Part shown: positions 16,104-40,484 of the stretch, one piece after another
How positions within the stretch are numbered: position 1 is the stretch's first letter
Layout of the letters: each line of letters begins with the position of its first letter
DNA from: Opitutales bacterium
GTDB lineage: Bacteria; Verrucomicrobiota; Verrucomicrobiia; Opitutales; UBA2987
DNA: 64,000 nucleotides
Direction of reading: 5' to 3'
Assembly: GCA_021772535.1 (NCBI GenBank)
Contig: JAJFLV010000234.1
Coordinates: forward strand, 8,483 to 72,482
Translations under genes and position numbers: made by a program
Notes under the pieces: generated by a model
What the model saw: only the letters and a program-made list of their open reading frames with translations
The model's database searches: none
Told to the model about the DNA's origin: nothing

Positions 16104-16122
16104 AGGTCGTGGGGGCAAATGA

Positions 16123-18054: not shown

Positions 18055-18121
18055 AGTTCGTGCCTTTTTTAGTGGTTAAATTGGAATGTCCAAGAGGAGG
18101 TTGCTAGGGTTACTTAATTGT

Positions 18122-18721
18122 TCAATTATTTCCGCTATCCCGGGAAATTACGCTATCTTTAGAAGTGGTTATCTTAAAGGATTTGGTGATTTCGGCCTCG
18201 TTCAGCCGAAGGGTATAACTGTTGGGGGTGATGGCAGAAACAACGATCTTATACTCCTTGCCCCGTGAATTGGTTGGAATGACATCGCCCACGGTGAGCT
18301 TTCCACCATTGGGGAAGAGGAGCAGACTTCTACGGCTGGTAACCAGGCTGCCCTTGGGGTTAAGCCTGCCGGCCACGGATCTGAGAATGACTTCGTTCGA
18401 AAGATCCTTTGGCTTGGCTTGAGGTTTCGGACGGATGGTATTATCCGCCACAACTCCAGTATCTGCCTCTTCTTCTACTGGTTCCTCTTCAGGTTGAATG
18501 AAGGGACTGAGGGCCGACCGCAAAGACGTATAGAATTCAGGGTCTTCGGAATTAAGGATGGCTCCAGCATTTTGCACCATTTTTTCCCTGTTCTCATTCA
18601 GTATAACGAGCTTGAGCGTTTCGTCCTGTGCTTGCAGGAAACCTGAGGAAACAAGAATCAATAAATAATTTCCGATCAAAAACAGCAGGGGATTTGCTCT
18701 ATATAATTTTGGCTTATTCAT
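18122..18721 (-). CDS. PilP-position periplasmic protein (hypothetical, pilus/secretin alignment subcomplex candidate)
   Basis: 199 aa. It has an N-terminal hydrophobic anchor (LLFLIGNYLLILVSSGFLQA), a Pro/Glu-rich linker and a beta-rich C-terminal domain. The assignment rests mainly on its position between the pilO-like gene (1-nt gap) and the secretin. Confidence 0.45.
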   Translation of the reverse strand: MNKPKLYRANPLLFLIGNYLLILVSSGFLQAQDETLKLVILNENREKMVQNAGAILNSEDPEFYTSLRSALSPFIQPEEEPVEEEADTGVVADNTIRPKPQAKPKDLSNEVILRSVAGRLNPKGSLVTSRRSLLLFPNGGKLTVGDVIPTNSRGKEYKIVVSAITPNSYTLRLNEAEITKSFKITTSKDSVISRDSGNN

Positions 18722-18722
18722 T

Positions 18723-19295
18723 TTATTTCCGTCCCAGCATGTCCATTTTCAGGCTAATTTGTATTTGGTCCTCATTATCTAAGCCGATCGAATTGGTGGA
18801 AAACCCATCAATGCGGGAAAAGTATTGCCCATGCTCCAGCCGGTATAGAAATTCGAGAACCTGCTGGAAATTTCCGGCTACACCGACGGAAAACTCAATC
18901 GGAGAATAAAGGGTGAGGGTGGGCTTGCCCGGAGGTGGCCGGGGCGGAGGAGGAGTGTCCGACTGGGAGAGGAGGGTCAGAGTAATCCCGGTTTTCTCCT
19001 CCAATCCATAGAAATACTGCTGGTTGATGGCTTTGTCCTCGCGCACTATCAGGCGTGATTGGATCTCCTCGCCGAAGGCAGAAATTTCTTTCACGTGCTC
19101 GGGAAGTGAAGCCGATTCTTTATTATTAGCAGAGATAGCGCCCCATTGATTTTCGATTCTGACAAGTTCGCCTTCCAATTCGGGCACTTTGGACTTGCGC
19201 AAGAAAACCCCGATTGCCAGCAACAATATAACTAACACCCCACCCACGGCAATCGGATACTGCTTAAGTTTCGCTATGATGAATTGAGCATTCAT
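18723..19295 (-). CDS. pilO: PilO-like inner-membrane pilus assembly protein
   Basis: 190 aa. It has a single N-terminal TM helix (YPIAVGGVLVILLLAIGVFL), a coiled-coil stretch and a compact C-terminal domain. It overlaps the upstream pilN-like gene by 4 nt. Topology and position fit, but there is no strong motif. Confidence 0.5.
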   Translation of the reverse strand: MNAQFIIAKLKQYPIAVGGVLVILLLAIGVFLRKSKVPELEGELVRIENQWGAISANNKESASLPEHVKEISAFGEEIQSRLIVREDKAINQQYFYGLEEKTGITLTLLSQSDTPPPPRPPPGKPTLTLYSPIEFSVGVAGNFQQVLEFLYRLEHGQYFSRIDGFSTNSIGLDNEDQIQISLKMDMLGRK

Positions 19296-19936
19296 TTGTT
19301 TATCGGCGGTATCAGTTCAACCCGTATGGAGCAATTGAACAGTCCCAGGTTTTCATCACGCTCCAGGGATTGCAGTTCCACCTTGTGGACGCTTTCCTTG
19401 ATGATATCCAGATTCTTTATGGTTTCCACATACTCCGTTACCAGCTGGGTTACGGCGGCAGGAGTACCATTGACTGTGCTTTGTAAAGTGACGAGCTTGC
19501 CGGGAGCGGTTTTGCGGTTGCCCAGATCAATTGTTTGGGAATCATAGCTGATGCTTTGCATGAGCATCTCCTCCGGTTTGACCTGGGCAAAAGTGAGGAG
19601 GAAAATAGACGGGGTTACCGGCGCCTTGACGAAATCCGTCAATTCCGAAATTTTTTTGGAGAGGGTGCCAAACTCCCCGCTCAACCTCAGATTATTGTTG
19701 TTCTTGCCAGTGTTTTCGCTGATTTTTGTTTCGAACTCCTTGATGCTCCGCCCAACGCTTAGAGCGGCGATTTCATTCTTGAGGAAAAACATCAACAGGA
19801 CGGCGGCCACAAGAACTATGCCCCAGTTGATTATGAAATCGGTCCGGATAGCCTTGATATCCGGCAATGTCTCCACATTCCGGAAATTGGGGTGCCAGGC
19901 CGACTGAACAATTTTTTTAGGCTTTCTAAGCGCCAT
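19292..19936 (-). CDS. pilN: PilN-like inner-membrane pilus assembly protein
   Basis: 214 aa. It has a short cytoplasmic N-terminus, a TM helix (FIINWGIVLVAAVLLMFFL) and a periplasmic coiled-coil plus alpha/beta part. It overlaps the pilM-like gene by 11 nt. Confidence 0.55.
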   Translation of the reverse strand: MALRKPKKIVQSAWHPNFRNVETLPDIKAIRTDFIINWGIVLVAAVLLMFFLKNEIAALSVGRSIKEFETKISENTGKNNNNLRLSGEFGTLSKKISELTDFVKAPVTPSIFLLTFAQVKPEEMLMQSISYDSQTIDLGNRKTAPGKLVTLQSTVNGTPAAVTQLVTEYVETIKNLDIIKESVHKVELQSLERDENLGLFNCSIRVELIPPINK

Positions 19937-20969
19937 CCGCCGCCTTGTCGTAGTTTCCCATCAAGCTGAACAGTCCGAGCCAACGACTGTCCAAGGTTTC
20001 CAGCTGGACGCCCTCGCTGGTGGTCAGACTCATCTGTTTAAGCCAACCGGGGTAATCCAGATGCAGCATGTCGACCCCCAGGGCACGTGATAAGGTGGCA
20101 TGCATCCAATTGAAATTGTTAGGCAGCAAAGTCATAAATATCTGCCCGATGGTCTGACCGGTTTGCACTTCGTAAAACCCGGTTGAGGCCTGTAGCTCCT
20201 TGAGCATTTTTTTCAGCAGGATCGGACCCATTTCGGTAAAATCGAATGTGTTGGAATAAAAAAGTTTTTTGGCCGACTCTTCATCCTTAAGGCCCAACTC
20301 GCTCTTGATACTAGGGAACATACTGGTCAATCCATAGGGAATCGGCCTCGCGATATCAACTTGTTTGCCACTTAAAATAAAGATGTTTGAGTTTTCCGGT
20401 GTGATTTCCAAAACCAGTGTCGGAAAGTGGATTTTCTTCCATTCCAAATAATTTTTGAGACCTCCCAGACCATTCAAAGAGCCGATCTCGACCGTTTGGG
20501 GGTATATGCCCCACTCCACTACGCGATCCTGCACCTTCTGCAGTTCCTCCAAGGTGGCGCCGCAAAATACCAGTTCCTTTTGAGCCTGCAGGTTCTTTTC
20601 GGCATCGAATTCGGTTCCATCGATTGCGTTGACCACCGCGACTCCGTTTTTGGCCGGATCGATTCTGAATTGGTTGGTTAGCAAATCAACCAGATAGGCC
20701 GGATCCTTGGCTTTGGCGGGAGATTCCAGCGTCGTTCGCCGGATGAATCGTGATTTGGGGTAAACGGAGCAGTGGCCCGTCAGGTAACCCCTTGCTTTGA
20801 CTTCTGCCAACCCGCCAATGAATTCCTGAATCTGCTCCAATTCAACATCAACAGGGCATTCTTGCAGGCTTTCAATTCTGAAAGGAGGAGTCAGGGTAGA
20901 GGTGACGGCGGCGAGAATGGAAAAATCACTGACCTCGACAAATACCCCCTTAGTCTTTGGCACTAGCAT
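19926..20969 (-). CDS. pilM: PilM-like cytoplasmic actin/FtsA-fold pilus assembly protein (divergent)
   Basis: 347 aa with no signal peptide or TM helix, and first in the block. The segment TLVLEITPENSNIFILSGKQVDIARPIPYGLTSM resembles the second phosphate-binding domain of PilM/FtsA but lacks the usual DIG/GG residues. Confidence 0.55.
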   Translation of the reverse strand: MLVPKTKGVFVEVSDFSILAAVTSTLTPPFRIESLQECPVDVELEQIQEFIGGLAEVKARGYLTGHCSVYPKSRFIRRTTLESPAKAKDPAYLVDLLTNQFRIDPAKNGVAVVNAIDGTEFDAEKNLQAQKELVFCGATLEELQKVQDRVVEWGIYPQTVEIGSLNGLGGLKNYLEWKKIHFPTLVLEITPENSNIFILSGKQVDIARPIPYGLTSMFPSIKSELGLKDEESAKKLFYSNTFDFTEMGPILLKKMLKELQASTGFYEVQTGQTIGQIFMTLLPNNFNWMHATLSRALGVDMLHLDYPGWLKQMSLTTSEGVQLETLDSRWLGLFSLMGNYDKAADGA

Positions 20970-26001: not shown

Positions 26002-26835
26002 CTATTTGCTGTAGTTGACCTTTCCCTCCTGCAAAGCCTTCTCATATTCGTTGAGGGCCAAAGGCATTAATTCCAGCAAATGGTCCTTGCGATTCTCTCC
26101 CGAAGGATGAGTGGATAAAAACTGGGGTGGCTTTTCACCGGTTTCCGCTTCTTCCATACGCCGCCAGAATTCCAGTGATGCCACCGGATCGTAGCCCGCA
26201 CGGGCCAGGTAAATCAAACCGAGATGGTCTGCCTCTTTTTCACTAAGTCGGCTGTAGGGCAGCCTGTAGCCGAATGAAGTGCCGACCCCGTAAGCAGTCA
26301 ATACGGCATTTCGGCTTTCCCTGCTACTGTCTTCCATGGCAGAATCAATGCCGAAAGCCACAAACTGTATGAGCAATTCGCGGGATAAGCGCTGGTTGGC
26401 ATGACGGGCCGTCACATGGGCGATTTCGTGCCCCATCACCACAGCAAGCAGGCTGTCGGTGGTGGCGATTTTAAAAATCCCGCTATAAACCCCGACCTTG
26501 CCTCCCGGCATGGCAAAGGCATTGATCAATTCATCATTATCAAACACAATGAACTCCCAATCCGCATTCGGCAGGTCTTTCCCCACTGACCGGGCGATTC
26601 TTTTCCCCACCCGATTAACCCGAACATTCATCTCGTAATCGTCCGACACCTTCTCCTCCTCCTTCAATTGATTAAAGGAGGCCAGGGCAAGACGGCTTAA
26701 CTGAGCATCAGGAACCACATTCAAAGCGGTGCGCCCCGTCTCCGGAACCGTGTAACATCCCACAAACAAGAATAACAAGACCGGAAAAACAATCATCACC
26801 TCAACTCTCGGGAAGTAAATCGTTTTCCATTTCAT
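26002..26835 (-). CDS. M48-family zinc metallopeptidase lipoprotein (YcaL/LoiP-like)
   Basis: 277 aa. Lipobox LLFLFVGC, HExxH motif in VVMGHEIAHVTARH, and a downstream E (EKEADHLG). Confidence 0.85.
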   Translation of the reverse strand: MKWKTIYFPRVEVMIVFPVLLFLFVGCYTVPETGRTALNVVPDAQLSRLALASFNQLKEEEKVSDDYEMNVRVNRVGKRIARSVGKDLPNADWEFIVFDNDELINAFAMPGGKVGVYSGIFKIATTDSLLAVVMGHEIAHVTARHANQRLSRELLIQFVAFGIDSAMEDSSRESRNAVLTAYGVGTSFGYRLPYSRLSEKEADHLGLIYLARAGYDPVASLEFWRRMEEAETGEKPPQFLSTHPSGENRKDHLLELMPLALNEYEKALQEGKVNYSK

Positions 26836-26958
26836 ACCTTCAGTAGATACACCTTTGGAAAAATCTATGCCAGTCTAATCAGCAAGATTCACTTGAGAAA
26901 GAGAACATGGGAGCTGCCAGGGAGGAATAAATTCCAAGAACTGACAGTTTATTCGGGG

Positions 26959-28236
26959 TTAGAGGCCTGTGAACACTTCGGTATCCTCATAAAAGGCCTG
27001 CCAGGAAAACCAAAAAGCTCCCACTCCAACAATTTCTTCCCCCGTGTCCAGATTGATGACGGCAACCGATTTGGCAGCTTCATCCAGGGTAAGTTGCAAA
27101 TTTACACCGTTGAATGTGTCCAGAACCGGTTCCCCGTCGATCAACCTCTCCAGCGGGTAGGCCTTTCCCACTCCGTCGACGTCAATTCCCCAAACCCAGG
27201 CTTTGGCTGGCAGATCGGGCCGAATTTCATCCACTCTAAAGAATGGAAAAGGCGACGAATCATGCTCATTGTAGGGATTGCGTGAATAATCCCTCAGGAA
27301 TCCAGTCGCCGTAGAGAGCACTTTGCCATCCGGGAACTTTTGGCGCCAAGTCTCCCATGTGAGTTGTTCGCTCAATCGCCAAGTCAAACGGGTACCGATC
27401 TGACTTCCCGTTACGGCCTGTAAAGAAAATTGCGACCAAAGGCTGTTCGTCTTACGATCATACATGAGGAGGTTGTTGGTCCAAAGCAAACCGGATACGC
27501 CAAAATCAAGGAGTTCACCGTTGACCATGCGATCAAATACGATTCCGGTTCCGCAAAGCGGACAATAGGTTACTGAAAAATAGTCCTCTCCAACCTGGTC
27601 GTTGACGACCTCATGCCAATTCAGGATTCGGAAAGGATAAGCCCGCGTTTCGCCGCCGCTGGTAACGCTTAAAAGGATATCACCTTCCTCCATGAATACG
27701 GCCTCTGCAATGGAAACAAATTCCGGTTGGTCAATGGCCGGAATGCCATCCTTTCCCGGTCCGCCGTCGAGAATCTCCTCTCTTGGCAGGAGGGAATTGG
27801 TCAAATTGAATACATCGTAGGAAAATTGTGATTGCTCGAATTCGAGAGAGATCCACTCACCAATGGCATAATCGAAGAACTTCCTTGGTTCCGTCGTTCC
27901 CAAAGCATAAAACATCCAGGTGGATCGGTCAAAACTGTAAATAGTTGGGTAGGTATCGCCATTGGTCCAATACCAACCCAGGGTTCTGTCAAAGAGATTG
28001 GCGCTGGAATCGTTGTTGGTCGCCTGTGAAAACACCCAACCATGCTCATTATGGAAAAGCCAGGGATCAAAAGTATCGAAGAAGAACCCCAGCCAAGGGG
28101 ACTCTTTCCAACCGTTTTCAAAGGCCGTGTTTTCAAATTGAGCCCTTGTTTCCGCCGATGGGAAAACACCGGCAATGGCTAAAACAAAGACTAGAATTAG
28201 GTGATTAAAGTGAGGGAATAATAATTTTGGGTTCAT
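26959..28236 (-). CDS. DUF3179-family secreted protein with an N-terminal Trp-rich module
   Basis: 425 aa with a signal peptide. DUF3179 hallmarks are present: KDGIPAIDQPEF, YPFRILNWHEVVND, TYCPLCGTGIVFDR, FGVSGLLWTNNLLMYDRKTNSLWSQ. Residues 41-131 form the Trp-rich module shared with two other genes. Confidence 0.8.
   Translation of the reverse strand: MNPKLLFPHFNHLILVFVLAIAGVFPSAETRAQFENTAFENGWKESPWLGFFFDTFDPWLFHNEHGWVFSQATNNDSSANLFDRTLGWYWTNGDTYPTIYSFDRSTWMFYALGTTEPRKFFDYAIGEWISLEFEQSQFSYDVFNLTNSLLPREEILDGGPGKDGIPAIDQPEFVSIAEAVFMEEGDILLSVTSGGETRAYPFRILNWHEVVNDQVGEDYFSVTYCPLCGTGIVFDRMVNGELLDFGVSGLLWTNNLLMYDRKTNSLWSQFSLQAVTGSQIGTRLTWRLSEQLTWETWRQKFPDGKVLSTATGFLRDYSRNPYNEHDSSPFPFFRVDEIRPDLPAKAWVWGIDVDGVGKAYPLERLIDGEPVLDTFNGVNLQLTLDEAAKSVAVINLDTGEEIVGVGAFWFSWQAFYEDTEVFTGL
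27844..28116 (-). other. Trp-rich ~90-aa module, copy 1 (N-terminal in the DUF3179 protein)
   Basis: NGWKESPWLGFFFDTFDPWLFHNEHGWVFSQ...LGWYWTNGDTYPTIYSFDRSTWMFY...EPRKFFDYAIGEWISL. Confidence 0.7.
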
Positions 28237-28281
28237 GTTTGGAAGATTGAGAACGAGTTTCTGTTTTTTAAAAGTTATTGA

Positions 28282-29160
28282 TCAATAAGGTATCCATTCC
28301 TGGGTATTCCAGATCTGGATCCAGCGTGGATCCTTGGAACCTGGCTGGTACCACATCCATGAGTCTTTATCTACGCTGAATAACCAGGAGTAGGCGGCTT
28401 CACCAGTCCAGAACCAGCCCAGGTCGGATGTCCAGAACCAGATGCTGGCGGAGTCGACGCTTTGATTGAACATCCATCCGTGTTCATTGTGGTAAATCCA
28501 GGGGGCGGCCAGGATATTAAACGAGCCAAACCATTCCAGACCCCTCCAGCCGTCGCCAAGGTCCTCCGAATCAGCCCAGAAATACTCCTCGCCCATTCCA
28601 CCGGTAGGAGCTTCCACCGAATCAATGAATTGCCGGAAAACAAAAGCTCCGGGATAGCCGGGCTGGTTGTGCAGCACCTCCCATTGCTCATGGCTGGGAG
28701 ATCCCGCTACCCCGTTAATGATGACGAATAAAGGAATGCCATCGACCTGGTTATATTGATTCCAGCCAACAGCTACAGGATCGTCCACCACCAGTTCCAA
28801 TTCTGTTTTGGTGATGAAATCATCCGTGCTGGCGGCATCTTCCGGCTCAATGTTGACGGCGATAACCTGGACTGGAATTCCATTCGCATTACCGCCGCTA
28901 TCGATAAAAAATCGTTGGATATTTTGTTCGATATCGGGAGATGAAAAGGCGCATGGAGCGCACCAGAAAGCGAAAAAATCCAGCACAATGACATGCCCGG
29001 CAAAATCGCTCAGACTGACGGGCTGGCCGGTGCGCCGGTTCAGCAGAGTGAGGTCATCCGTAATGGAGCCGGTGGGGAAAGGTTGGGCCACCGAGAGGCA
29101 GGGAAACAGGGCCAACGCCAGTAAGAATACAGACAGGGTGCGGCGTGGATCAAGTTTCAT
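28282..29160 (-). CDS. Secreted TlpA/redoxin-like thioredoxin-fold protein with a C-terminal Trp-rich module
   Basis: 292 aa. Signal peptide MKLDPRRTLSVFLLALALFPCLSVAQP and a CxxC motif in VLDFFAFWCAPCAF. The C-terminal 91 aa form the Trp-rich module. Confidence 0.8.
   Translation of the reverse strand: MKLDPRRTLSVFLLALALFPCLSVAQPFPTGSITDDLTLLNRRTGQPVSLSDFAGHVIVLDFFAFWCAPCAFSSPDIEQNIQRFFIDSGGNANGIPVQVIAVNIEPEDAASTDDFITKTELELVVDDPVAVGWNQYNQVDGIPLFVIINGVAGSPSHEQWEVLHNQPGYPGAFVFRQFIDSVEAPTGGMGEEYFWADSEDLGDGWRGLEWFGSFNILAAPWIYHNEHGWMFNQSVDSASIWFWTSDLGWFWTGEAAYSWLFSVDKDSWMWYQPGSKDPRWIQIWNTQEWIPY
28285..28557 (-). other. Trp-rich ~90-aa module, copy 2 (C-terminal in the thioredoxin-like protein)
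   Basis: GDGWRGLEWFGSFNILAAPWIYHNEHGWMFNQSVDSASIWFWTSDLGWFWTGEAAYSWLFSVDKDSWMWYQPGSKDPRWIQIWNTQEWIPY. Confidence 0.7.
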
Positions 29161-29178: not shown

Positions 29179-31047
29179 TTAAAACAATTTGGAGAAACTC
29201 ACGCTGGCCATAACCCAATTGCGATTCTGGTAAAGATTGGCAAAAGGAAGGATGTCGGAATCGGGGGAACCAAACCGCGTCCGGTAGGCGGAAATCATCG
29301 CTTTGAAGGCGCTGGTTCTGCCTTGCCAGCGAAAAGCTCCTCCTACCTGGTAGGTGGTCAATGGCGGAGGGCCGCTGGATATTAATATGGAGGTTTCAAT
29401 TTGACCGGAATCCTCATAGTAACGGCCAAAAAAATTAAGAAAATAACGGCTGTCCCAATCCCGCTCAATCAAACCTTCGGCCGACCAGGAAAAAAAGTCC
29501 TCCTCCGAAAACTCTTCGTCGTCCTCCTGGGTGGCGGAAAAGACTGTTCTCAAAACCCAATTTTCGGAGAGGGCATAATTGAAGGAACCCTGGTAAGAGT
29601 AGCGTAATTCCCTGTCGGTTGTCCCCGTGAGAGAAACTTGCAGGAGGGAACGTAATTTTCGAGTCAGGACATTTTCGAAGGTAAATACCGCAGCTCCGGT
29701 ATGCAATCGCTCCCGGCCTCGTTCGAGTGGTTCAAATAAGGGTTTGTCGAACCCGGGCGCCACATCGTCCTGCTGGAATACCAGGTTGGCCTGAATAAAT
29801 CCGGTGGTCGGCGAATATTCCCACCTTAATCCTGACGATAGATTAAATCCCCACGGGTCCGACTCCACGTACCCCTCGAGTTTGGAAAACTGTTGGCGAT
29901 AATATTCCTCGAGCCATAGTGACCGGTGGCTGGTAAATCCCTTATAGCCCCCCGCCGAGCCTTGCCATTCCAGTGAATCGGAGAACATGCGGGTGCGATT
30001 GATTTGGAAGGTTCCAGCATTTTCGGTAAGCTTGGCCGGTTTTCCAATGACATCTGCGTCCGGGTTGGGCTGATAATCAATATCGATCCTGTCGGCGGAA
30101 AAATCGATGCCCCAACTCGAAACACCTCTATCCCGCTGGTAAGTTATACCAGTGCGATACATTTTTATATCGGAGGAAAGAACCAATTCCGAGTTGAACT
30201 CCAGGTTGTCGTTTAAAATCCTGATCGCTGGAGGAGTTGCCATTTCACTAATAACGGAATCGGCCAGAGTGGGCGTCGCCACAGGAATTGTATTCTGGAC
30301 AAGGGGATCGGCAGTGGCGGCCCCAATATTATATTTATCTTCATCCCCGGCGGAAATGAAAGAACTCCCGTCGGCGGTGTTCGTTGAAATAAAATCCGCC
30401 CCTCCAGACATTTTTCCGGTGTGTGTGGCAGCCTCTTTTTGTTGTTGAGAGAGAATAAACGGGAAAGTCGGAGAACCAATTTCCGAAAGGGTTTCGCCTT
30501 TGTGTCCGAGAGAGTCTATGATTTCGCGAATTTCGGTGTACCCTTCATAACCGGCATTGCGATAGGCTACTTTCCATTCGCGACTATGGTTATTGATCGA
30601 GGTGCCGTCCAAAATCACGATAAAGGGCAGGCCCCGTCCTTCAAAGCGCTTGAAAATTTCTCCATCGGTGTCGTTGAGAACCAAACTCGCACCCGTCCTG
30701 CGCAAAAAGGCCGCCGTTTTATCAGGATGATCGCTTTCGACGTTTATGGAAATAACCCTGACTGACTGTCCTGCTGAATTTCCCGTGGTTGTGTCATAAA
30801 ACTGTTGAACATATTTTTCCAGCTCAGCGGAAGCGCCTAAACAAGGCACACACCAATAGGCAAAAAAATCGAGAACCACAATTCCGCCCGCAAAATCGTT
30901 CAAATCCAGAGAGACTCCAGAATCCCATTGCGAAGCCTCGAAACCCTCAATCTCTTTTCCAACAAATCCTTCACCGGCAAGGGCATTGCCCATAAAAATG
31001 ATTGATCCGACCAAACAGATTAACCGACTTGAAATTTTACCCACCAT
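29179..31047 (-). CDS. Fusion protein: N-terminal TlpA-like thioredoxin domain plus C-terminal predicted outer-membrane beta-barrel (DUF3570-like)
   Basis: The track ORF extends to 31134. The ATG at 31047 gives the signal peptide MVGKISSRLICLVGSIIFMGNALA and removes the overlap with the upstream gene. CxxC motif in VLDFFAYWCVPCLG. The C-terminal ~350 aa have alternating amphipathic beta-strand character and end in ...SVSFSKLF (terminal Phe, OMP-like). Confidence 0.7.
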   Translation of the reverse strand: MVGKISSRLICLVGSIIFMGNALAGEGFVGKEIEGFEASQWDSGVSLDLNDFAGGIVVLDFFAYWCVPCLGASAELEKYVQQFYDTTTGNSAGQSVRVISINVESDHPDKTAAFLRRTGASLVLNDTDGEIFKRFEGRGLPFIVILDGTSINNHSREWKVAYRNAGYEGYTEIREIIDSLGHKGETLSEIGSPTFPFILSQQQKEAATHTGKMSGGADFISTNTADGSSFISAGDEDKYNIGAATADPLVQNTIPVATPTLADSVISEMATPPAIRILNDNLEFNSELVLSSDIKMYRTGITYQRDRGVSSWGIDFSADRIDIDYQPNPDADVIGKPAKLTENAGTFQINRTRMFSDSLEWQGSAGGYKGFTSHRSLWLEEYYRQQFSKLEGYVESDPWGFNLSSGLRWEYSPTTGFIQANLVFQQDDVAPGFDKPLFEPLERGRERLHTGAAVFTFENVLTRKLRSLLQVSLTGTTDRELRYSYQGSFNYALSENWVLRTVFSATQEDDEEFSEEDFFSWSAEGLIERDWDSRYFLNFFGRYYEDSGQIETSILISSGPPPLTTYQVGGAFRWQGRTSAFKAMISAYRTRFGSPDSDILPFANLYQNRNWVMASVSFSKLF

Positions 31048-31063
31048 CAGTGCGAATGCGTAC

Positions 31064-31333
31064 CTATTTGCACGATGTGCAACCGGATGCCTGCGCTCCT
31101 CCAGCGGAGGATGATCCCGGTTCCACCCGACCAATAAAACCCGAGTTGGAGGAATATATCGAGGAATCGGAAAATATCATGTTGGGCTTTGAAAGCAGAC
31201 GCTGTTCAGTAATGTCGATATGGCTGCAACCACTCAAAAATGCCAGAGATGCGATCAATAAAAGGATTGAGAGTTTTCGCAATCCGGCCGCCTCCAGAAT
31301 GGAGTAATCTCGATGAGTTCCATTATTTTTCAT
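31064..31333 (-). CDS. Small lipoprotein, DUF4266-like
   Basis: 89 aa. Lipobox LAFLSGC. The segment QRLLSKPNMIFSDSS and the Gly/Ser-rich C-terminus ending GGAQASGCTSCK match my recollection of the DUF4266 pattern (lipobox, ...LAKP.M..D..., C-terminal GGGCGC-like tail). Confidence 0.55.
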   Translation of the reverse strand: MKNNGTHRDYSILEAAGLRKLSILLLIASLAFLSGCSHIDITEQRLLSKPNMIFSDSSIYSSNSGFIGRVEPGSSSAGGAQASGCTSCK

Positions 31334-35941: not shown

Positions 35942-37162
35942 TTATTCAGTATTTTCCCCCTGAAAAAGGGCAACGAGGCCTTCCTGTCCGGACTCTCCGG
36001 CGTAATCAACCGCTGATTTTCCGGCCTCATCGACATGTTCGACATCGGCGTCGTATTCGAGTAGTTTTTTTACGAATTGTGGTTCTCCCATTTTCGAGGC
36101 GAAAATAAGCGGAGAACGCCCTTTGTTATCCACAATATTAGGGTTCGCTCCAGAATTGAGCAAATAAGCCACTTTGGGGAAATCGCGCTCTATGATCTGA
36201 TCGATTAGAGTAGTGGCTCCGGTCTTATCCTGGGCATTGATGTCTGCGCCGGAGTCAAGCAAAAGCCGGACAATGGTCAAATTTCCTCTGTAAACTGCCA
36301 TCATCAAGGGAGTGACGCCCTCGACATCAGCCAATTCGGGTTGAATACCTATTTCCAGGCATTTCTGGATTATGCCGGAGCTTCCTCCCCGAATGGCAGC
36401 CATAAGGACGGTATTGCCTTCATTGTCGCGTGAGTGTATATCCGCCCCTGCCTCTATACAGCTATTAAAAATCTCCAGATTGCCACCACGCGCGGCGGAG
36501 TGGGCTACCGTCCACCCATTTTTATCCACCGCTTTTGGATTGGCATTGAAAGCGAGAGCATCGGAGAATATTTCCACGCTACCGCCTTCCGCTGCTGCCA
36601 TGAGAACGGTATAACCGGACTCGTCTGCGGTGTTAAGGCTCCTGCCCTTGCTTCGGACAATATCGAATATCCTTTTGTTTCCCCCCACGGCGGCCGCCAT
36701 GGCGAGGGAATAGCCGGTTTTATCAACGGGGCTTCCATAGCCGGATTTCCCCAATACTTTATCGAATATCCTTTGATTCCCCCCCATGGCCGCCGCCATC
36801 AGGGTCGAATAGCCTTTTTTTGTTCGTGCCCGGGGATCGGCTCCCTTTTTGAGCAAAATGGAAAAAATCTTTGAATTTCCCCGAGCGGCCGCCTCCATCA
36901 AAACGGTCCAGCCTTCGCTGTTGAGCGCATTGGGGTCGGAGCCGTCGAAAAGGAGAACACTAACCATCGAAGGTTGTTGTTTTTTAATGGCCATCCACAA
37001 ATTGGCATCTCTGGTAAACTGCTGAGAATTCTCGATGATCGCCTCCAGGGTTCCCAATCGTCCGCCTCCTGAAAGTAGAAGCAAGAGGATGGAGAGAAAA
37101 AGGAGGCGCAGGGTTCCAATTAAACGCCTTTTCAATAGTGGAACTGAATTATCATTGTTCAT
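35942..37162 (-). CDS. Membrane-anchored ankyrin-repeat protein (about 10 ANK repeats)
   Basis: The track ORF starts at TTG 37222. The ATG at 37162 gives MNNDNSVPLLKRRLIGTLRLLFLSILLLLLSGG, a TM anchor. Repeated 33-aa units such as GWTVLMEAAARGNSKIFSILLKKGADPRARTKKG follow. Confidence 0.85.
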   Translation of the reverse strand: MNNDNSVPLLKRRLIGTLRLLFLSILLLLLSGGGRLGTLEAIIENSQQFTRDANLWMAIKKQQPSMVSVLLFDGSDPNALNSEGWTVLMEAAARGNSKIFSILLKKGADPRARTKKGYSTLMAAAMGGNQRIFDKVLGKSGYGSPVDKTGYSLAMAAAVGGNKRIFDIVRSKGRSLNTADESGYTVLMAAAEGGSVEIFSDALAFNANPKAVDKNGWTVAHSAARGGNLEIFNSCIEAGADIHSRDNEGNTVLMAAIRGGSSGIIQKCLEIGIQPELADVEGVTPLMMAVYRGNLTIVRLLLDSGADINAQDKTGATTLIDQIIERDFPKVAYLLNSGANPNIVDNKGRSPLIFASKMGEPQFVKKLLEYDADVEHVDEAGKSAVDYAGESGQEGLVALFQGENTE

Positions 37163-37234
37163 GGTCGGAATTATCGGTTTCTGTTTACCATCCAAGGCTT
37201 GCCATGACAACACCCTTCGCAACTAATTGCTGGA

Positions 37235-39232
37235 ATGGCGAAAGCGTTAAATTGGGGCATCATAGGAACCGGCCGCATAGCGAACAAATTTGCGGCCGCC
37301 CTGAATGTATCAGCCGACGCCAAATTAACCGCGGTGGGAAGTCGAAAGCATGCAACCACGGAAGACTTCGGACAAAAATTCGGCGTTCCCTGCCGTCACG
37401 GGAGTTATGAGGAACTCATCGATAATCCAGAGGTGGAAGCGGTTTACATAGCAATCCCGCACCCCTTTCATGCTCAATGGTCTTTGCGGTGCGCAGCTGC
37501 CGGGAAGCACCAGATTTGTGAAAAACCGCTGGCCATGAATCATGCCGAAGCTATGGCAATGGTTGAGGCAGCGCACAGAAACAATGTCTATCTGTCAGAA
37601 GGATTTGCCTACCGGTGCACACCTATGACAACCCGCCTGGTCCAATTGATCCGTGATGGCGCCATCGGCGAGGTGAAAAGAATCATATCAAGTTACAGTT
37701 TCAAACTCGGCCCAAAGCCGGCACGACGATTGGTGGAACCGGAATTGGGCGGAGGGGCCATCCTGGATGTCGGGTGCTACCCAATCTCTATGGTTCGATT
37801 GCTTGCCGGGGTGGCCATGGGGCAGAAATTTGCCGATCCAGTTGACTTAGAGGGGATGGCCCGAATGGGGCCGACAGGTGTCGACTTTCATGCCACGGCC
37901 ATCCTCCGATTTGATGGCGGGATCATAGCACAAGTCTCAACCGGATTGGATGCCAACGATGGAATCCAGTTGGAAATTTTTGGTGATGAAGGAAGCTTGT
38001 CAATCAATACTCCTTGGCATGCTCAGGGCAGCATTTTGCTGAGAAGGACGGGTGAAGAGCCGGAGGAAATTGTGATTGAAAGGGGGAAAACCCTTTTTGC
38101 TTACGAAATCGAGGAAGCTTCACGACACCTGAAGCATGGTCAGACACCAGCCATGAGCTGGGCGGATTCCCTGGGAAACATGAGAACCCTGGACAGGTGG
38201 AGAAATGCCGTAAACTTCTCCTACCCTTGCGAAAAACCAAACTCAGGAACCTGGCCCATTTACCGTGAATCATTGAAACCCTCCTCCGGCCACAACATGA
38301 ACTACAACCATATCACTGGGGTGAGAAAAAAGATTTCACGCCTGGTCATGGGAACCGATTATTGCCCGGGCGACGCCCACGCGGCGGTTATGTTCGACGA
38401 CTTCTTCGAACGGGGAGGCAATTGTTTCGATACGGCGGAACAATATTTCAATGGGGAAAGAGAGAAAGTTTTGGGCCGGTGGATGAAAAACCGGAATTTG
38501 CGGGAGGAAATTGTAATCCTCGACAAAGGAGGCCATACACCCCACTGCTGGCCGGAAATTATCCAGGCCAATATTCCAAGAAGCCTGGAACGATTGCAAA
38601 CGGATTACATCGATATTTACATGTTGCATCGAGATAATCCGGAGGTGCCGGTGGGCGAGTTTATCGAGGTACTTAATGAGCAGATAAATGCGGGTCACAT
38701 CCATGTCTTGGGAGCCTCCAACTGGACCAAGGAGCGGGTGGATCAAGCAAACGCTTATGCCGCCCAAAAGGGGCTGATAGGTTTTGCCGCAGTAAGCAAC
38801 AACTTCAGCCTGGCCCGCATGGTCAAGCCAATGTGGGAGGGTTGCCTGGCCTCCTCGGAATCGGATTACCGTCTATGGCACCTGGACAAACAAATGCCTT
38901 TGATGTCCTGGAGCAGCCAGGCGAGGGGATTTTTCACGGATCGCTCGGGACCCAGGAAAAAACAGGACCGGCTGATGGTCAAGGCATGGTATAGCAAGGA
39001 CAATTTCGAGAGAAAAAGGCGAGCGGTCGCATTAGCAAAGGAAAAGGGCGTTTTACCTATAAATATTGCCCTGGCTTACGTTCTCGATCAGCTCTTTCCC
39101 ACTTTTGCACTGATTTGCCCCTACACCCTGGAAGAAATGAGGACCACCATGGACGGACTGGACATTTCACTAACCAAGAAAGAAATCCAGTGGCTGAATC
39201 TGGAATTGGAGGAGCTTCAGGAAAATGTTTGA
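37235..39232 (+). CDS. Two-domain fusion: N-terminal Gfo/Idh/MocA oxidoreductase plus C-terminal aldo/keto reductase
   Basis: 665 aa. The N-terminal half has LNWGIIGTGRIANKFAAAL and ICEKPLAMN. The C-terminal half (from about aa 345) has FDTAEQYFNGEREKVLG, IDIYMLHRDN and GASNW. Confidence 0.8.
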   Translation: MAKALNWGIIGTGRIANKFAAALNVSADAKLTAVGSRKHATTEDFGQKFGVPCRHGSYEELIDNPEVEAVYIAIPHPFHAQWSLRCAAAGKHQICEKPLAMNHAEAMAMVEAAHRNNVYLSEGFAYRCTPMTTRLVQLIRDGAIGEVKRIISSYSFKLGPKPARRLVEPELGGGAILDVGCYPISMVRLLAGVAMGQKFADPVDLEGMARMGPTGVDFHATAILRFDGGIIAQVSTGLDANDGIQLEIFGDEGSLSINTPWHAQGSILLRRTGEEPEEIVIERGKTLFAYEIEEASRHLKHGQTPAMSWADSLGNMRTLDRWRNAVNFSYPCEKPNSGTWPIYRESLKPSSGHNMNYNHITGVRKKISRLVMGTDYCPGDAHAAVMFDDFFERGGNCFDTAEQYFNGEREKVLGRWMKNRNLREEIVILDKGGHTPHCWPEIIQANIPRSLERLQTDYIDIYMLHRDNPEVPVGEFIEVLNEQINAGHIHVLGASNWTKERVDQANAYAAQKGLIGFAAVSNNFSLARMVKPMWEGCLASSESDYRLWHLDKQMPLMSWSSQARGFFTDRSGPRKKQDRLMVKAWYSKDNFERKRRAVALAKEKGVLPINIALAYVLDQLFPTFALICPYTLEEMRTTMDGLDISLTKKEIQWLNLELEELQENV

Positions 39233-39248: not shown

Positions 39249-40484
39249 TTACCGGGAGAACCATTCGTTGGAGACAAAATTGAAGAACCACCGGGGGTTG
39301 GAAGAACCTTTTTGATACCAAAGCCAACCGTTTTCATTGGAGCTGAAAACAAAAGGGTAAATGGTTGAACCGCTCCATATCCAACCTAAATCAGTACTCC
39401 AGAACCAGATACTGCCGGTTGCTTCACCCGAGGCATTCATCCACCCCAGTTCATTGTGGAAAATCCAGCCGGGGCCGGTTCCCTCGCTAAAAAAGGAACC
39501 GAACCAATCCAGTTCCTTCCAGCCATCGGGATCGCCGGTTGCCTGAGACCAAAGCCCCACTGGGGGCGGACCCAGGTCGTCTGCCAGATTGAGTAAAACG
39601 GCGTTAAGAAGACTGGCCGCATTGTCCTCGGCAAAACGGGTGAAATTGGAAAACTCGTTGGGGTCGCCGTTGCCCACGATGTCGCTCAACCCGCGTATGA
39701 TGAGAAAGGGAACCTGTCGCGTCCAGCAGACATGAGCAATGGCCGTCGATTCCATGTCGACCGAATCCGTGCCCCAAGTCTGCAGGATAAATTGGCTCAA
39801 TCCAAAGTTATCCATGAAAGCCGGTCCGGCTGTTCCAGAACCGCCGATCTTTACCGTGGATTCCCGGTTAAACGGATCAAGTATCTGGAGGGATTCGGCC
39901 GCTTCTTCGGCAATGGACAACAGGTCGGCGTCGGCCTCAAAAAATTCCTTGCGCATAGTAGTAGTCATACCGGCGCGAATGACGGACATGGGGCCAGGGT
40001 GAATCATGCCGAAATTTCCCCGTTGCGGCGTGAACCAGTTGGGCAAAAGAAATTGGCCGGGATTTTGAGGATCTTCCCCAAACCAGCCTCCAAAAGCGTA
40101 ATAATGCCAGCGGGCGGGTACCACTACATCGGCAATCTCCATATTCCGGTTGAGACCACCGGCCACCCCGGCGAAGAGCAAACGGTCAACATCAAAACGC
40201 TCGAGGACCAGCTGGGTGGCAATGGCAGCGTTGATTAGACCGATATTGGTCTTAAATATGATTACAGGCAGGCCATAAACCTCCCCGATAAAGAAATCAA
40301 TGCCGTGAATGTCGCGGACTTCCCCAATGGTTTCTCCCTCGAGTTTCTCCCGAATGCTGTTCAGCTCTCCGCCAAAAGCTGCCACGATGGCGGTGTACCC
40401 AGTGCCATTGGCGCTAAAAAGGTTCGTGTTCGCCATTAAATAAAGGGCTATGAAACAGCTTGTTTTTCTAATTAAAATCCTCAT
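39249..40484 (-). CDS. Secreted PNP/UDP-1 family nucleosidase (MTA/SAH-nucleosidase-like) with a C-terminal Trp-rich module
   Basis: 411 aa with a signal peptide. Motifs include AIVAAFGGEL, LLFAGVAGGL and DMESTAIAHVC...IIRGLSDIVG. The C-terminal 92 aa form the Trp-rich module. Confidence 0.7.
   Translation of the reverse strand: MRILIRKTSCFIALYLMANTNLFSANGTGYTAIVAAFGGELNSIREKLEGETIGEVRDIHGIDFFIGEVYGLPVIIFKTNIGLINAAIATQLVLERFDVDRLLFAGVAGGLNRNMEIADVVVPARWHYYAFGGWFGEDPQNPGQFLLPNWFTPQRGNFGMIHPGPMSVIRAGMTTTMRKEFFEADADLLSIAEEAAESLQILDPFNRESTVKIGGSGTAGPAFMDNFGLSQFILQTWGTDSVDMESTAIAHVCWTRQVPFLIIRGLSDIVGNGDPNEFSNFTRFAEDNAASLLNAVLLNLADDLGPPPVGLWSQATGDPDGWKELDWFGSFFSEGTGPGWIFHNELGWMNASGEATGSIWFWSTDLGWIWSGSTIYPFVFSSNENGWLWYQKGSSNPRWFFNFVSNEWFSR
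39252..39527 (-). other. Trp-rich ~90-aa module, copy 3 (C-terminal in the nucleosidase)
   Basis: DGWKELDWFGSFFSEGTGPGWIFHNELGWMNASGEATGSIWFWSTDLGWIWSGSTIYPFVFSSNENGWLWYQKGSSNPRWFFNFVSNEWFSR. Confidence 0.7.

What the first reader, a model, noticed from the sequence alone, without database searches (positions are those of the whole stretch)
27844..28557. A ~90-aa Trp-rich module shared by three unrelated secreted enzymes (third copy at 39252-39527)
The same module occurs at the N-terminus of the DUF3179 protein (27844-28116). It also occurs at the C-terminus of the neighbouring thioredoxin-like protein (28285-28557) and of a PNP/MTAN-like nucleosidase 11 kb away (39252-39527).

The shared pattern is: [DN]-G-W-[KR]-x-x-x-W-[FL]-G-x-F, then P/G-W-[IL]-[FY]-H-N-E-[HL]-G-W, then I-W-F-W-x-[ST]-D-L-G-W-x-W-[ST]-G, then Y-[PS], then F-S, then W-[ML]-W-Y, then G-[ST], then P-R-W, then E-W. 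That gives 12-14 Trp residues in about 90 aa.

Internally it looks like four ~20-aa aromatic hairpins. This is reminiscent of choline-, glucan- or cell-wall-binding repeats, but it does not match their consensus. A portable module on either end of different catalytic domains suggests a common targeting or anchoring function, for example binding a surface glycan or peptidoglycan. I cannot name a family for it.
Basis: partly seen in the sequence, partly recalled or inferred. Interest (0 to 1): 0.6.

Follow-up and report, generated by a model that had tools for sequence, protein, structure and literature searches.

The report
Portable tryptophan-rich domain on exported proteins
Three unrelated exported enzymes in this window share a real domain of about 100 residues, packed with tryptophan and built from beta-hairpins; it belongs to a large family absent from Pfam and NCBIfam, found mainly in marine Verrucomicrobia (Opitutales), and it probably holds exported proteins at the cell envelope.

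Summary
Three minus-strand genes carry the same module: a DUF3179 protein, a TlpA-like thioredoxin and a PNP/MTAN-like nucleosidase. Composition-adjusted BLASTP gives E 1e-28 to 6e-19, and shuffle z-scores are 20-25.

The module is not private to this genome. An exhaustive profile search found 3,534 cluster representatives, 1,288 of them at E<=1e-10. No Pfam or NCBIfam model covers it, and no PDB sequence matches.

With 79 homologues, AlphaFold2 gives a very confident model (pLDDT 97) of five aromatic beta-hairpins. Foldseek finds no match in PDB or BFVD. hhalign rejects choline-binding repeats (probability 0.4%).

Among the 155 module copies in the top 150 hits, 127 are at the extreme C-terminus, 17 follow a signal peptide and 11 are internal or tandem. 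Host proteins are exported enzymes, adhesin-like repeat proteins and "choice-of-anchor" families. Named genomes are mostly Opitutales/Puniceicoccaceae.

The closest homologues of the nucleosidase are exported but lack the module. The pair TlpA-module plus module-DUF3179 recurs in an Oceanipulchritudo MAG.

Best reading: an uncatalogued, autonomous, non-catalytic retention or targeting domain of the cell envelope. The ligand is unknown and the function is inferred, not shown. The main rival is a secretion-sorting signal.

The parts
28285..28581 (-).
   Evidence: Translation. HMM hit over profile positions 1-88. First sequence of alignment A3. AF2 model pLDDT 97.1 with 10 strands in 5 hairpins.
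28582..29160 (-). Signal peptide plus thioredoxin-fold (AhpC-TSA/Redoxin/TlpA-like) domain with a WCAPC motif; host of copy 1
   Evidence: Pfam PF00578, PF08534 and PF13905; NCBIfam TlpA/ResA-like. Full-length orthologue that includes the module in an Oceanipulchritudo MAG (L006, 35.5% identity over 276 aa).
27844..28137 (-).
   Evidence: Translation. HMM hit over profile positions 1-89. BLASTP E 2e-21 and 6e-19 to the other copies.
26959..27843 (-). DUF3179 domain with a CPLC motif; host of copy 2. The signal peptide is encoded at 28138-28236.
   Evidence: PF11376 E 1.5e-81, aa 162-419. DUF3179 is listed as a selenoprotein family with a UxxC/T motif in PMC9312934. The same module-DUF3179 architecture occurs in L007.
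39252..39554 (-).
   Evidence: Translation. HMM hit over profile positions 1-89. BLASTP E 1e-28 to copy 1.
39555..40484 (-). Signal peptide plus PNP_UDP_1 (MTA/SAH-nucleosidase-like) domain; host of copy 3
   Evidence: PF01048 E 2.9e-35; NCBIfam MTA/SAH nucleosidase models below their cut-offs. The closest homologues (38-48% identity, about 305 aa) have signal peptides but no module.
29179..31134 (-). Context gene immediately upstream in the same orientation: a second TlpA-like domain fused to about 420 unannotated residues ending in ...SFSKLF. It may be an outer-membrane-anchored paralogue; that is inference only.
   Evidence: Pfam thioredoxin-like hits at aa 58-176. No Pfam or PDB hit for the C-terminal 423 aa.

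Best explanation
The module is an autonomously folding, non-catalytic all-beta domain of about 100 residues. It consists of a short conserved lead-in (LWxxAxDLG) followed by five aromatic beta-hairpins. At least one hairpin (IWFWT-SDL-GWFWT) has the WxW...WxW cross-strand pattern of a tryptophan zipper.

It belongs to a large domain family that Pfam and NCBIfam do not catalogue. The family is concentrated in Opitutales/Puniceicoccaceae and other PVC bacteria. The domain has been shuffled onto the C-terminus of Sec- or Tat-exported proteins of every kind. Less often it sits on the mature N-terminus or in tandem.

Most likely mechanism (inferred, not shown): after export, the domain binds non-covalently to a component of the cell's own envelope. 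A glycan such as LPS, capsule or peptidoglycan is the leading candidate, contacted through an exposed aromatic face. This would keep enzymes and adhesins attached to the cell. In this window it would co-localise a thiol-redox set (TlpA-like protein and the CxxC protein DUF3179) and a nucleosidase.
For: Shown:
- The three copies are homologous.
- The family is large: 3,534 representatives at E<=1e-3 and 1,288 at E<=1e-10.
- The model is very confident: pLDDT 97.1, pTM 0.84, ten strands in five hairpins.
- There is an internal duplication of a two-hairpin unit.
- Among the 155 module copies in the top 150 hits, 127 are at the C-terminal end, 17 follow a signal peptide and 11 are internal; 8 proteins carry two copies.
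- Of 124 evaluable hosts, 92 have an N-terminal hydrophobic signal-like region, and one has a Tat-like leader.
- Partner domains are of exported or surface types: InlB B-repeat, RCC1, ice-binding, LamG, cadherin/Ig, FG-GAP, subtilase, trypsin, FGE-sulfatase, cyclophilin, BamB-like and cupredoxins.
- Ten hosts carry NCBIfam 'choice-of-anchor' domains (Q x6, L, GloVer x2, NxxGxxAF). To my knowledge, these families are named for accepting alternative C-terminal anchors.
- The nearest homologues of the window's nucleosidase are exported but lack the module. The module is therefore an accessory, needed neither for Sec export nor for catalysis.
- The TlpA-module and module-DUF3179 gene pair is conserved at 35-39% identity in Oceanipulchritudo MAGs, so the fusions are old and maintained.

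Inferred: N-terminal and tandem copies fit a binding module. Envelope housekeeping hosts (thiol oxidoreductases, PPIases) act on the cell's own envelope, not on external substrates.
Against: - No binding was tested, and no ligand, receptor or localisation is known.
- The module is on average acidic (mean net charge -3.2; -5 to -6 in the window copies). That argues against simple electrostatic binding to anionic envelope polymers.
- 82% of the top-hit copies are at the extreme C-terminus with only 0-11 residues after them. That is also what a sorting signal would look like.
Confidence: 0.5

Rival explanations
1. The module is a secretion or sorting domain, functionally analogous to the T9SS C-terminal domain. 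On this reading a folded all-beta tag at the C-terminus is recognised by an outer-membrane translocon or attachment machinery specific to Opitutales/PVC, and may be removed afterwards.
For: - 127 of the 155 module copies in the top 150 hits end within 12 residues of the C-terminus, mostly within 2-7.
- The cargo repertoire is extremely diverse. It includes choice-of-anchor families, a myxosortase-dependent-M36-like protease, and giant adhesin-like proteins up to 3,820 aa.
- The size and all-beta nature are similar to the T9SS CTD.
- From my own knowledge, a thioredoxin-domain T9SS cargo exists (P. gingivalis HBP35).
Against: - 17 copies are N-terminal directly after the signal peptide, including one in this window, and 8 proteins carry two copies. 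Neither is expected for a C-terminal translocation signal.
- There is no match to any sorting-domain model in Pfam or NCBIfam.
- Foldseek finds no Ig-like or beta-sandwich CTD structures.
- No dedicated machinery was identified.
Confidence: 0.2
2. The module is a carbohydrate-binding module that targets enzymes to an environmental polysaccharide substrate, such as algal glycans, rather than to the cell itself.
For: - Composition is aromatic-rich: 27% W/Y/F and about 11 Trp per module.
- The nearly invariant polar residues His23, Thr51 and Arg78 resemble CBM binding sites.
- Hosts come largely from marine samples (TARA names) and from taxa known as polysaccharide degraders.
- A few hosts are sulfatases or FGE-sulfatase proteins.
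Against: - No glycoside hydrolase or lyase appears among the 25 most frequent Pfam families of the 131 hosts. The list is dominated by adhesin-like repeats, proteases, redox proteins and PPIases.
- Substrate targeting makes little sense for TlpA-like oxidoreductases, DUF3179, cyclophilins or a nucleosidase.
- There is no match to any CBM model.
Confidence: 0.12
3. The module is a protein-protein docking or self-association domain, dockerin-like or lattice-forming. Module-bearing proteins would assemble with each other or on a scaffold. For example, it could bring the TlpA-like protein and DUF3179 together as a redox pair.
For: - Adjacent genes carry the module at the C-terminus of one protein and the N-terminus of the next, and this arrangement is conserved in an Oceanipulchritudo MAG.
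- Both hairpin faces are hydrophobic or aromatic by sequence pattern.
- The acidic net charge argues against binding to anionic polymers.
Against: - There is no evidence of a scaffold protein.
- Most module proteins in the sampled loci are not adjacent to another module gene. About 3-4 extra copies occur in 160 kb around 30 seed genes.
- No multimer prediction could be run.
Confidence: 0.1
4. The similarity is a compositional artefact of Trp/Gly/Ser-rich low-complexity sequence.
For: The composition is very biased: up to 14 Trp in 91 aa.
Against: - Composition-adjusted E-values are 1e-28 to 6e-19.
- z-scores are 20-25 against shuffles.
- Thousands of full-length collinear profile matches exist.
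- The AF2 pLDDT is 97.
Confidence: 0.01

Closest known systems
Choline-binding / cell-wall-binding repeats (Pfam CW_binding_1, PF01473; LytA, Cbp proteins, clostridial toxin CROPs, glucansucrase glucan-binding repeats)
   Same: Both are non-catalytic, portable and built from aromatic beta-hairpins of about 20 aa. Compare GW-x-K...G-x-WYY with W-I-Y-H...G-W-L-Y. Both occur at either end of unrelated exported enzymes. The known repeats hold enzymes on a cell-wall polymer; their architecture is described in PMC4471590.
   Different: There is no detectable homology. Pfam gives no hit at E<=10 in 79 members. hhalign against the verified LytA choline-binding domain gives probability 0.4%. No choline-binding structure appears among the 50 listed Foldseek PDB hits. 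The module is a closed unit of fixed length (five hairpins, about 100 aa), not an open-ended array. Hosts are diderm PVC bacteria, not Firmicutes.
Type IX secretion C-terminal domain (Por_Secre_tail / TIGR04183)
   Same: Both are all-beta domains of about 80-100 aa at the extreme C-terminus of a very heterogeneous set of exported proteins: proteases, adhesins, thioredoxin-like proteins and choice-of-anchor families. Both are lineage-restricted and present in many proteins per genome.
   Different: There is no sequence match and no Foldseek match to solved structures. The module also occurs N-terminally and in tandem. It is found in Verrucomicrobiota/Lentisphaerota MAGs rather than Bacteroidota.
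PEP-CTERM/exosortase and other short C-terminal sorting signals
   Same: Both are a lineage-wide tag on diverse exported proteins and share 'choice-of-anchor' partner families.
   Different: Those signals are a motif of about 25 aa plus a transmembrane helix and a basic tail. This module is a soluble folded domain of about 100 aa with no hydrophobic helix.
Designed tryptophan-zipper beta-hairpins (trpzip peptides)
   Same: Hairpin 3 (IWFWT-SDL-GWFWT) has the WxW-turn-WxW pattern. The strand register from the model's DSSP assignment would pair W40 with W50 and W42 with W48 across strands.
   Different: This is a natural multi-hairpin domain rather than a 12-16-residue designed peptide. The pairing is inferred from secondary-structure assignment, not from coordinates.

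Membership tests
CW_binding_1 (choline/cell-wall-binding repeats) | Sequence match to the PF01473 repeat profile | tested here: not met
   No PF01473 hit at E<=1 in the three window proteins, nor at E<=10 in 79 module sequences.
CW_binding_1 (choline/cell-wall-binding repeats) | Profile-level homology to a bona fide choline-binding domain | tested here: not met
   hhalign of A3 against LytA residues 177-318 gives probability 0.4%, E 0.15. The LytA sequence was verified against 4x36_A.
CW_binding_1 (choline/cell-wall-binding repeats) | Beta-beta-solenoid fold similar to solved choline-binding domains | tested here: inconclusive
T9SS C-terminal sorting domain | Match to TIGR04183 / Por_Secre_tail models | tested here: not met
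   No such hit in Pfam or NCBIfam for the window proteins or among the listed families of the 131 hosts.
T9SS C-terminal sorting domain | Strictly C-terminal position | tested here: not met
   Of 155 copies, 17 are N-terminal and 11 are internal or tandem. The DUF3179 copy in the window is N-terminal.
T9SS C-terminal sorting domain | Occurrence in genomes with T9SS machinery (PorK/L/M/N, SprA, PorU/V) | not tested
   Named genomes are Opitutales, Puniceicoccaceae and Victivallales. Their gene content was not examined.
PEP-CTERM and related short sorting signals | Short motif, then a hydrophobic helix, then a basic tail at the C-terminus | tested here: not met
   The module ends in ...W-E-x-x with 0-11 further residues and has no hydrophobic helix.
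Known carbohydrate-binding modules / other aromatic repeats (WG, ChW, GW/SH3b, OCRE) | Match to any corresponding Pfam profile | tested here: not met
   Only noise was found: OCRE in 6 of 79 members, best E 0.011, and nothing else recurrent.
New domain family (this module) | Full-length collinear match to the 90-position profile, with the conserved positions W4, W9, G11, W20, H23, W48, T51, Y56-P57, W67 and W88 | tested here: met
   All three window copies match. These columns are invariant or at least 90% conserved in the 79-sequence alignment.

The most novel reading that the evidence does not exclude
The domain is the address tag of an undescribed, lineage-wide protein-localisation system of Opitutales and related PVC bacteria. 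That system would be the functional counterpart of the T9SS CTD/A-LPS system or of PEP-CTERM/exosortase. It would have its own receptor or attachment machinery, would use a new tryptophan-zipper fold, and would tag perhaps tens to about a hundred proteins per genome.
Probability: 0.2. Interest if true: 0.8.

Novelty: new variant of a known kind. Interest (0 to 1): 0.6.

Why it matters
Opitutales/Puniceicoccaceae are major marine degraders of polysaccharides, yet how their many exported enzymes and giant adhesin-like proteins are kept at the cell surface or in the periplasm is poorly understood.

This is a single add-on domain of about 100 aa, present in thousands of protein clusters but absent from Pfam and NCBIfam. 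Recognising it gives three things:
- A handle for predicting the localisation of a large share of these organisms' exported proteins.
- A confident structural model of a natural multi-tryptophan-zipper domain with no Foldseek match in the PDB.
- A small, testable reagent (GFP-module) for finding the envelope component it recognises.

Defining the family would also immediately improve annotation of many 'hypothetical' proteins in marine metagenomes.

Tried and rejected
- Word-indexed homologue searches with the module nearly failed: 0 hits with the 3-sequence profile and 7 hits with the 79-sequence profile. The exhaustive search showed this to be a limit of the tool's sensitivity, not rarity.
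- AF2 with only the three window copies was uninformative (pLDDT 48.7). I used the 79-sequence model instead.
- PDB sequence and profile searches found nothing below E 0.4.
- The weak OCRE hits are rejected as an effect of aromatic composition.
- Alignment A3 was too diverse for locus finding. A1 patterns were used instead, which biases the recovered genomes toward close relatives.
- Three literature searches found no description of this domain.
- Evidence for stand-alone 'signal peptide + module' proteins was inconclusive, because most short hits are gene fragments.
- Module-level pairwise identities (23-47%) are too saturated to tell orthologous from paralogous modules.
- The C-terminal 423 aa of the upstream TlpA-like protein gave no Pfam or PDB hit. 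Its outer-membrane-barrel reading remains a guess.
Full report
**1. Observation**

The coordinates given lie in three minus-strand ORFs:
- 26959-28236, 425 aa.
- 28282-29160, 292 aa.
- 39249-40484, 411 aa.

Pfam and NCBIfam identify their catalytic parts:
- DUF3179 (PF11376, E 1.5e-81, aa 162-419).
- A thioredoxin-fold AhpC-TSA/Redoxin/TlpA-like domain (aa about 27-150, WCAPC motif).
- PNP_UDP_1 (E 2.9e-35; the best NCBIfam models are MTA/SAH nucleosidases, below their cut-offs).

None of these models covers the shared segment. That segment sits at aa 41-131, 202-292 and 320-411 respectively. By eye, all three proteins begin with signal-peptide-like sequences.

The shared segment is significantly similar in every pair:
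- 47% identity, E 1e-28.
- 37% identity, E 2e-21.
- 37% identity, E 6e-19.

These values use compositional matrix adjustment. Smith-Waterman scores are 20-25 SD above 2,000 composition-preserving shuffles. The compositional-bias objection therefore fails. A six-frame HMM scan finds no fourth copy in the window.

Minor corrections:
- Trp counts are 14, 12 and 8, not 12-14 throughout.
- The conserved region starts about 9 residues upstream, with [LP]-W-x-[GD]-A-[TV]-D-L-G. In 150 family members, W occurs at -8 in 88, D at -3 in 87, and G at -1 in 113.
- The copies therefore span 27844-28137, 28285-28581 and 39252-39554.

**2. What it is**

An exhaustive HMMER search used the three-copy profile against 1.84 billion representatives of clusters at 50% identity. 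It found 3,534 proteins at E<=1e-3, 1,288 at E<=1e-10 and 4 at E<=1e-30. Nearly all of the best 150 match over profile positions 1-2 to 87-90. This is a large domain family, not a peculiarity of one genome.

The family is not catalogued:
- Pfam finds nothing at E<=1 in the window proteins.
- Pfam finds nothing recurrent at E<=10 in 79 isolated modules; the only repeat is OCRE in 6 members, best E 0.011.
- In Pfam and NCBIfam scans of 131 full-length hosts, no family is shared by more than 9 of them.
- PDB sequence and profile searches are empty.
- Source annotations call these proteins 'hypothetical' or name them after another domain.

A 79-sequence alignment (A3) gives this consensus: xGW[RK]x[LS]xWFGxF-x5-PWIYHxEHGWLY-x7-S[IV]W[LF][WY]-Dx[DE]LGWLWT-x4-YP[FY]LY-x6-WL[WFY]Y-xxGSxxPR[W]F[YF][ND]-x6-W. 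Position W9 is invariant. Positions W4, G11, W20, H23, W48, T51, Y56, P57, W67 and W88 are at least 90% conserved.

Across the 155 module copies found in the top 150 hits, the module averages 10.9 Trp, 27% W/Y/F and a net charge of -3.2.

**3. Structure**

With three sequences, AlphaFold2 was uninformative (pLDDT 48.7). With A3 it gave pLDDT 97.1 and pTM 0.84, with all five models at 96 or above.

The model has ten short strands forming five hairpins: 4-7/11-14, 20-23/27-35, 38-43/47-51, 58-61/66-70 and 79-82/87-90.

hhalign of hairpins 2+3 against hairpins 4+5 gives probability 87%, E 4e-6. This indicates an internal duplication of a two-hairpin unit.

In each hairpin, one face carries cross-strand aromatic pairs. 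In hairpin 3 these are W40/W50 and W42/W48, the WxW...WxW pattern of designed tryptophan zippers. The other face carries aliphatic pairs. I inferred this from the DSSP register and the sequence, because I had no coordinates.

Foldseek found no credible match:
- PDB: best E 1.4, TMq<=0.38.
- BFVD: best E 0.96.

**4. Distribution and architecture**

Positions of the 155 module copies in the top 150 proteins:
- 127 end within 12 residues of the C-terminus.
- 17 start at residues 23-56, directly after a signal peptide.
- 11 are internal.
- 8 proteins carry two copies, some of them partial.

After C-terminal copies, the tail is 0-11 residues long. Host proteins range from 82 to 3,820 aa.

Of 124 evaluable hosts, 92 have a strong N-terminal hydrophobic region. 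Most of the rest look like fragments or mis-called starts. For example, P0003 is the window's own nucleosidase with a truncated start. One host has a Tat-like leader.

Partner domains fall into these groups:
- Adhesin-like repeats: InlB B-repeat (9 hosts), RCC1, LamG, bacterial Ig and cadherin, FG-GAP, LRR.
- Ice-binding-like domains.
- Hydrolases: subtilase, trypsin, endonuclease/exonuclease/phosphatase.
- Sulfatase-related: FGE-sulfatase and sulfatases.
- Envelope housekeeping: cyclophilin and FKBP, BamB-like/PQQ propellers, cupredoxins.

Ten hosts carry NCBIfam 'choice-of-anchor' domains: Q x6, L x1, GloVer x2 and NxxGxxAF x1. Four match a myxosortase-dependent M36 peptidase model. To my knowledge, these families are named for accepting alternative C-terminal anchors. 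Here the module occupies the slot that sorting or anchoring signals occupy elsewhere.

Genome hits obtained with window-derived patterns are 17 loci. The sample is biased toward close relatives. The loci come from:
- Opitutales, Puniceicoccaceae, Oceanipulchritudo, Ca. Moanabacter, an uncultured Opitutae bacterium and unclassified Verrucomicrobiota (15 loci).
- One Victivallales MAG.
- One Thermodesulfobacteriota MAG.

Cluster names add 'Verrucomicrobiota', 'Opitutales' and TARA Oceans samples.

No locus exceeds 47% identity to the window copies, so the window's own species is not among the representative genomes. Its nucleosidase gene does occur on a Logan contig from run SRR15505516.

In about 160 kb flanking 30 seed genes there are roughly 3-4 further module genes. 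The window itself has 3 in 64 kb. This suggests tens to about a hundred per genome, but that is a rough extrapolation.

**5. Evidence on function from the window's own genes**

(a) The closest homologues of the nucleosidase have 38-48% identity and are about 305 aa. They have signal peptides and end right after the catalytic domain. The module was therefore added to an enzyme that was already exported and presumably functional. It is needed neither for Sec export nor for catalysis.

(b) The TlpA-like-module protein has full-length orthologues in Oceanipulchritudo MAGs: L006 at 35.5% identity over 276 aa, and L007 at 39% over 173 aa. In L007 it is followed by a module-DUF3179 gene, exactly as in the window. 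The two fusions and their adjacency are old and maintained.

(c) DUF3179 carries a CPLC motif. The family is listed among selenoprotein families with a UxxC/T motif (PMC9312934). The two adjacent genes thus look like an extracytoplasmic thiol-redox pair that shares one localisation module.

(d) The gene just upstream (29179-31134) encodes a second TlpA-like domain fused to about 420 unannotated residues ending in ...SFSKLF. If that region is an outer-membrane barrel (unverified), the paralogue would reach the envelope by a different anchor. That would parallel an anchoring role for the module.

**6. Mechanism**

I commit to the following reading at about 0.5 confidence. The module is a portable, non-catalytic envelope-retention or targeting domain. 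It binds a component of the producer's own envelope, most plausibly a glycan contacted by an aromatic face, and so keeps exported proteins cell-associated.

What is shown:
- Homology among the copies.
- An autonomous fold, as predicted.
- Portability to either terminus.
- Exported hosts.
- Accessory status.
- Conservation of the fusions.

What is inferred:
- Binding itself.
- The ligand.
- The compartment.

Points against:
- The module is acidic.
- The exposure of its aromatic residues is unknown.
- Its strong C-terminal bias is equally what a sorting signal would show.

Rivals:
- A T9SS-CTD-like sorting signal (0.2). It is weakened by the N-terminal and tandem copies.
- A substrate-targeting CBM (0.12). 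It is weakened by the lack of glycoside hydrolases or lyases among the 25 most frequent host families and by the housekeeping hosts.
- A docking or self-association domain (0.1). The adjacent TlpA/DUF3179 pair suggests it, but nothing else supports it.
- A compositional artefact (0.01 or less). This is refuted.

**7. Comparison with known families**

The module works most like the choline-binding / cell-wall-binding repeat modules (CW_binding_1). Those are portable aromatic beta-hairpin repeats that hold exported enzymes on a wall polymer (architecture summarised in PMC4471590). Membership was tested and not met:
- No PF01473 hit.
- hhalign probability 0.4% against the LytA choline-binding domain, whose sequence I verified against 4x36.
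- No choline-binding structure among the listed Foldseek hits.

The module resembles the T9SS CTD in size, all-beta nature, terminal position and cargo diversity. It fails on sequence, on strict C-terminality and on taxonomy.

It is not a PEP-CTERM-type signal, because it has no helix and no basic tail.

**8. Novelty and verdict**

It is an uncatalogued domain family with at least 3,534 representative clusters. It has a very confident five-hairpin, tryptophan-zipper-like model and no sequence or Foldseek relative among solved structures. It is used as an add-on by exported proteins of Opitutales and related PVC bacteria.

As a kind of thing, a portable targeting or anchoring module on secreted proteins is familiar. 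As a family and probably as a fold, it is new. I therefore rate it a 'new variant of a known kind', with interest 0.6. The function is a well-motivated inference that simple binding and fractionation experiments could settle.

Noticed in passing
window 29179-31134 (-): The gene directly upstream of the TlpA-module gene encodes a second TlpA-like thioredoxin domain (aa 58-176). It is fused to about 420 residues with no Pfam or PDB match, ending in ...VSFSKLF. The terminal Phe resembles an outer-membrane-barrel signature, so this may be a thioredoxin tethered to the outer membrane.
   Followed up: partly
window 26002-29160 (-) and L007 3-1819: The cluster TlpA-like-module, module-DUF3179 (CPLC motif), then an M48 peptidase with a lipoprotein-like leader (LFVGC) looks like an extracytoplasmic thiol-redox/protease cluster. 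The TlpA-module plus module-DUF3179 pair recurs in an Oceanipulchritudo MAG. DUF3179 is listed as a UxxC/T selenoprotein family (PMC9312934).
   Followed up: partly
window 9771-20969 (-): A secretin gene (16123-18054; Secretin, Secretin_N, STN) is preceded by four small ORFs without Pfam hits, possibly PilMNOP-like. It is followed by a 2,115-aa RCC1/CARDB giant protein (9771-16118) that does not carry the module.
   Followed up: partly
window 37235-39232 (+): A 665-aa fusion of a GFO/IDH/MocA oxidoreductase (N-terminal half) with an aldo/keto reductase (C-terminal half). This is an unusual two-oxidoreductase fusion next to the nucleosidase gene.
   Followed up: no
window 39249-40484 (-); P0198-P0214: The nucleosidase belongs to a clade of signal-peptide-bearing PNP/MTAN-like proteins of about 305 aa. 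Exported MTA/SAH-nucleosidase-like enzymes are unusual, since cytoplasmic ones are about 230 aa. Only the window's member carries the module.
   Followed up: partly
L011 (JAXHTA010000126.1) and P0156: One module copy lies in a Thermodesulfobacteriota MAG, on a protein with RHS-repeat Pfam annotations. That is outside the PVC range seen otherwise. It may reflect horizontal transfer or a binning error.
   Followed up: no
L031 9956-10271: A module split over three reading frames. It is either a frameshifted pseudogene or an assembly error in a metagenome contig.
   Followed up: no
window 35942-37222 (-) and 40634-41608 (+): An ankyrin-repeat protein (426 aa) lies close to the module genes, and an FGE-sulfatase (SUMF1-like) protein flanks the nucleosidase gene. 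FGE-sulfatase domains are themselves module hosts in other genomes (L012).
   Followed up: no
tool behaviour, vs 18: The word-indexed protein search returned 0 and 7 hits for a family that the exhaustive search shows to have thousands of members. The family's divergence at about 35-45% identity, with few shared 5-mers, probably also explains why it has escaped cataloguing.
   Followed up: yes
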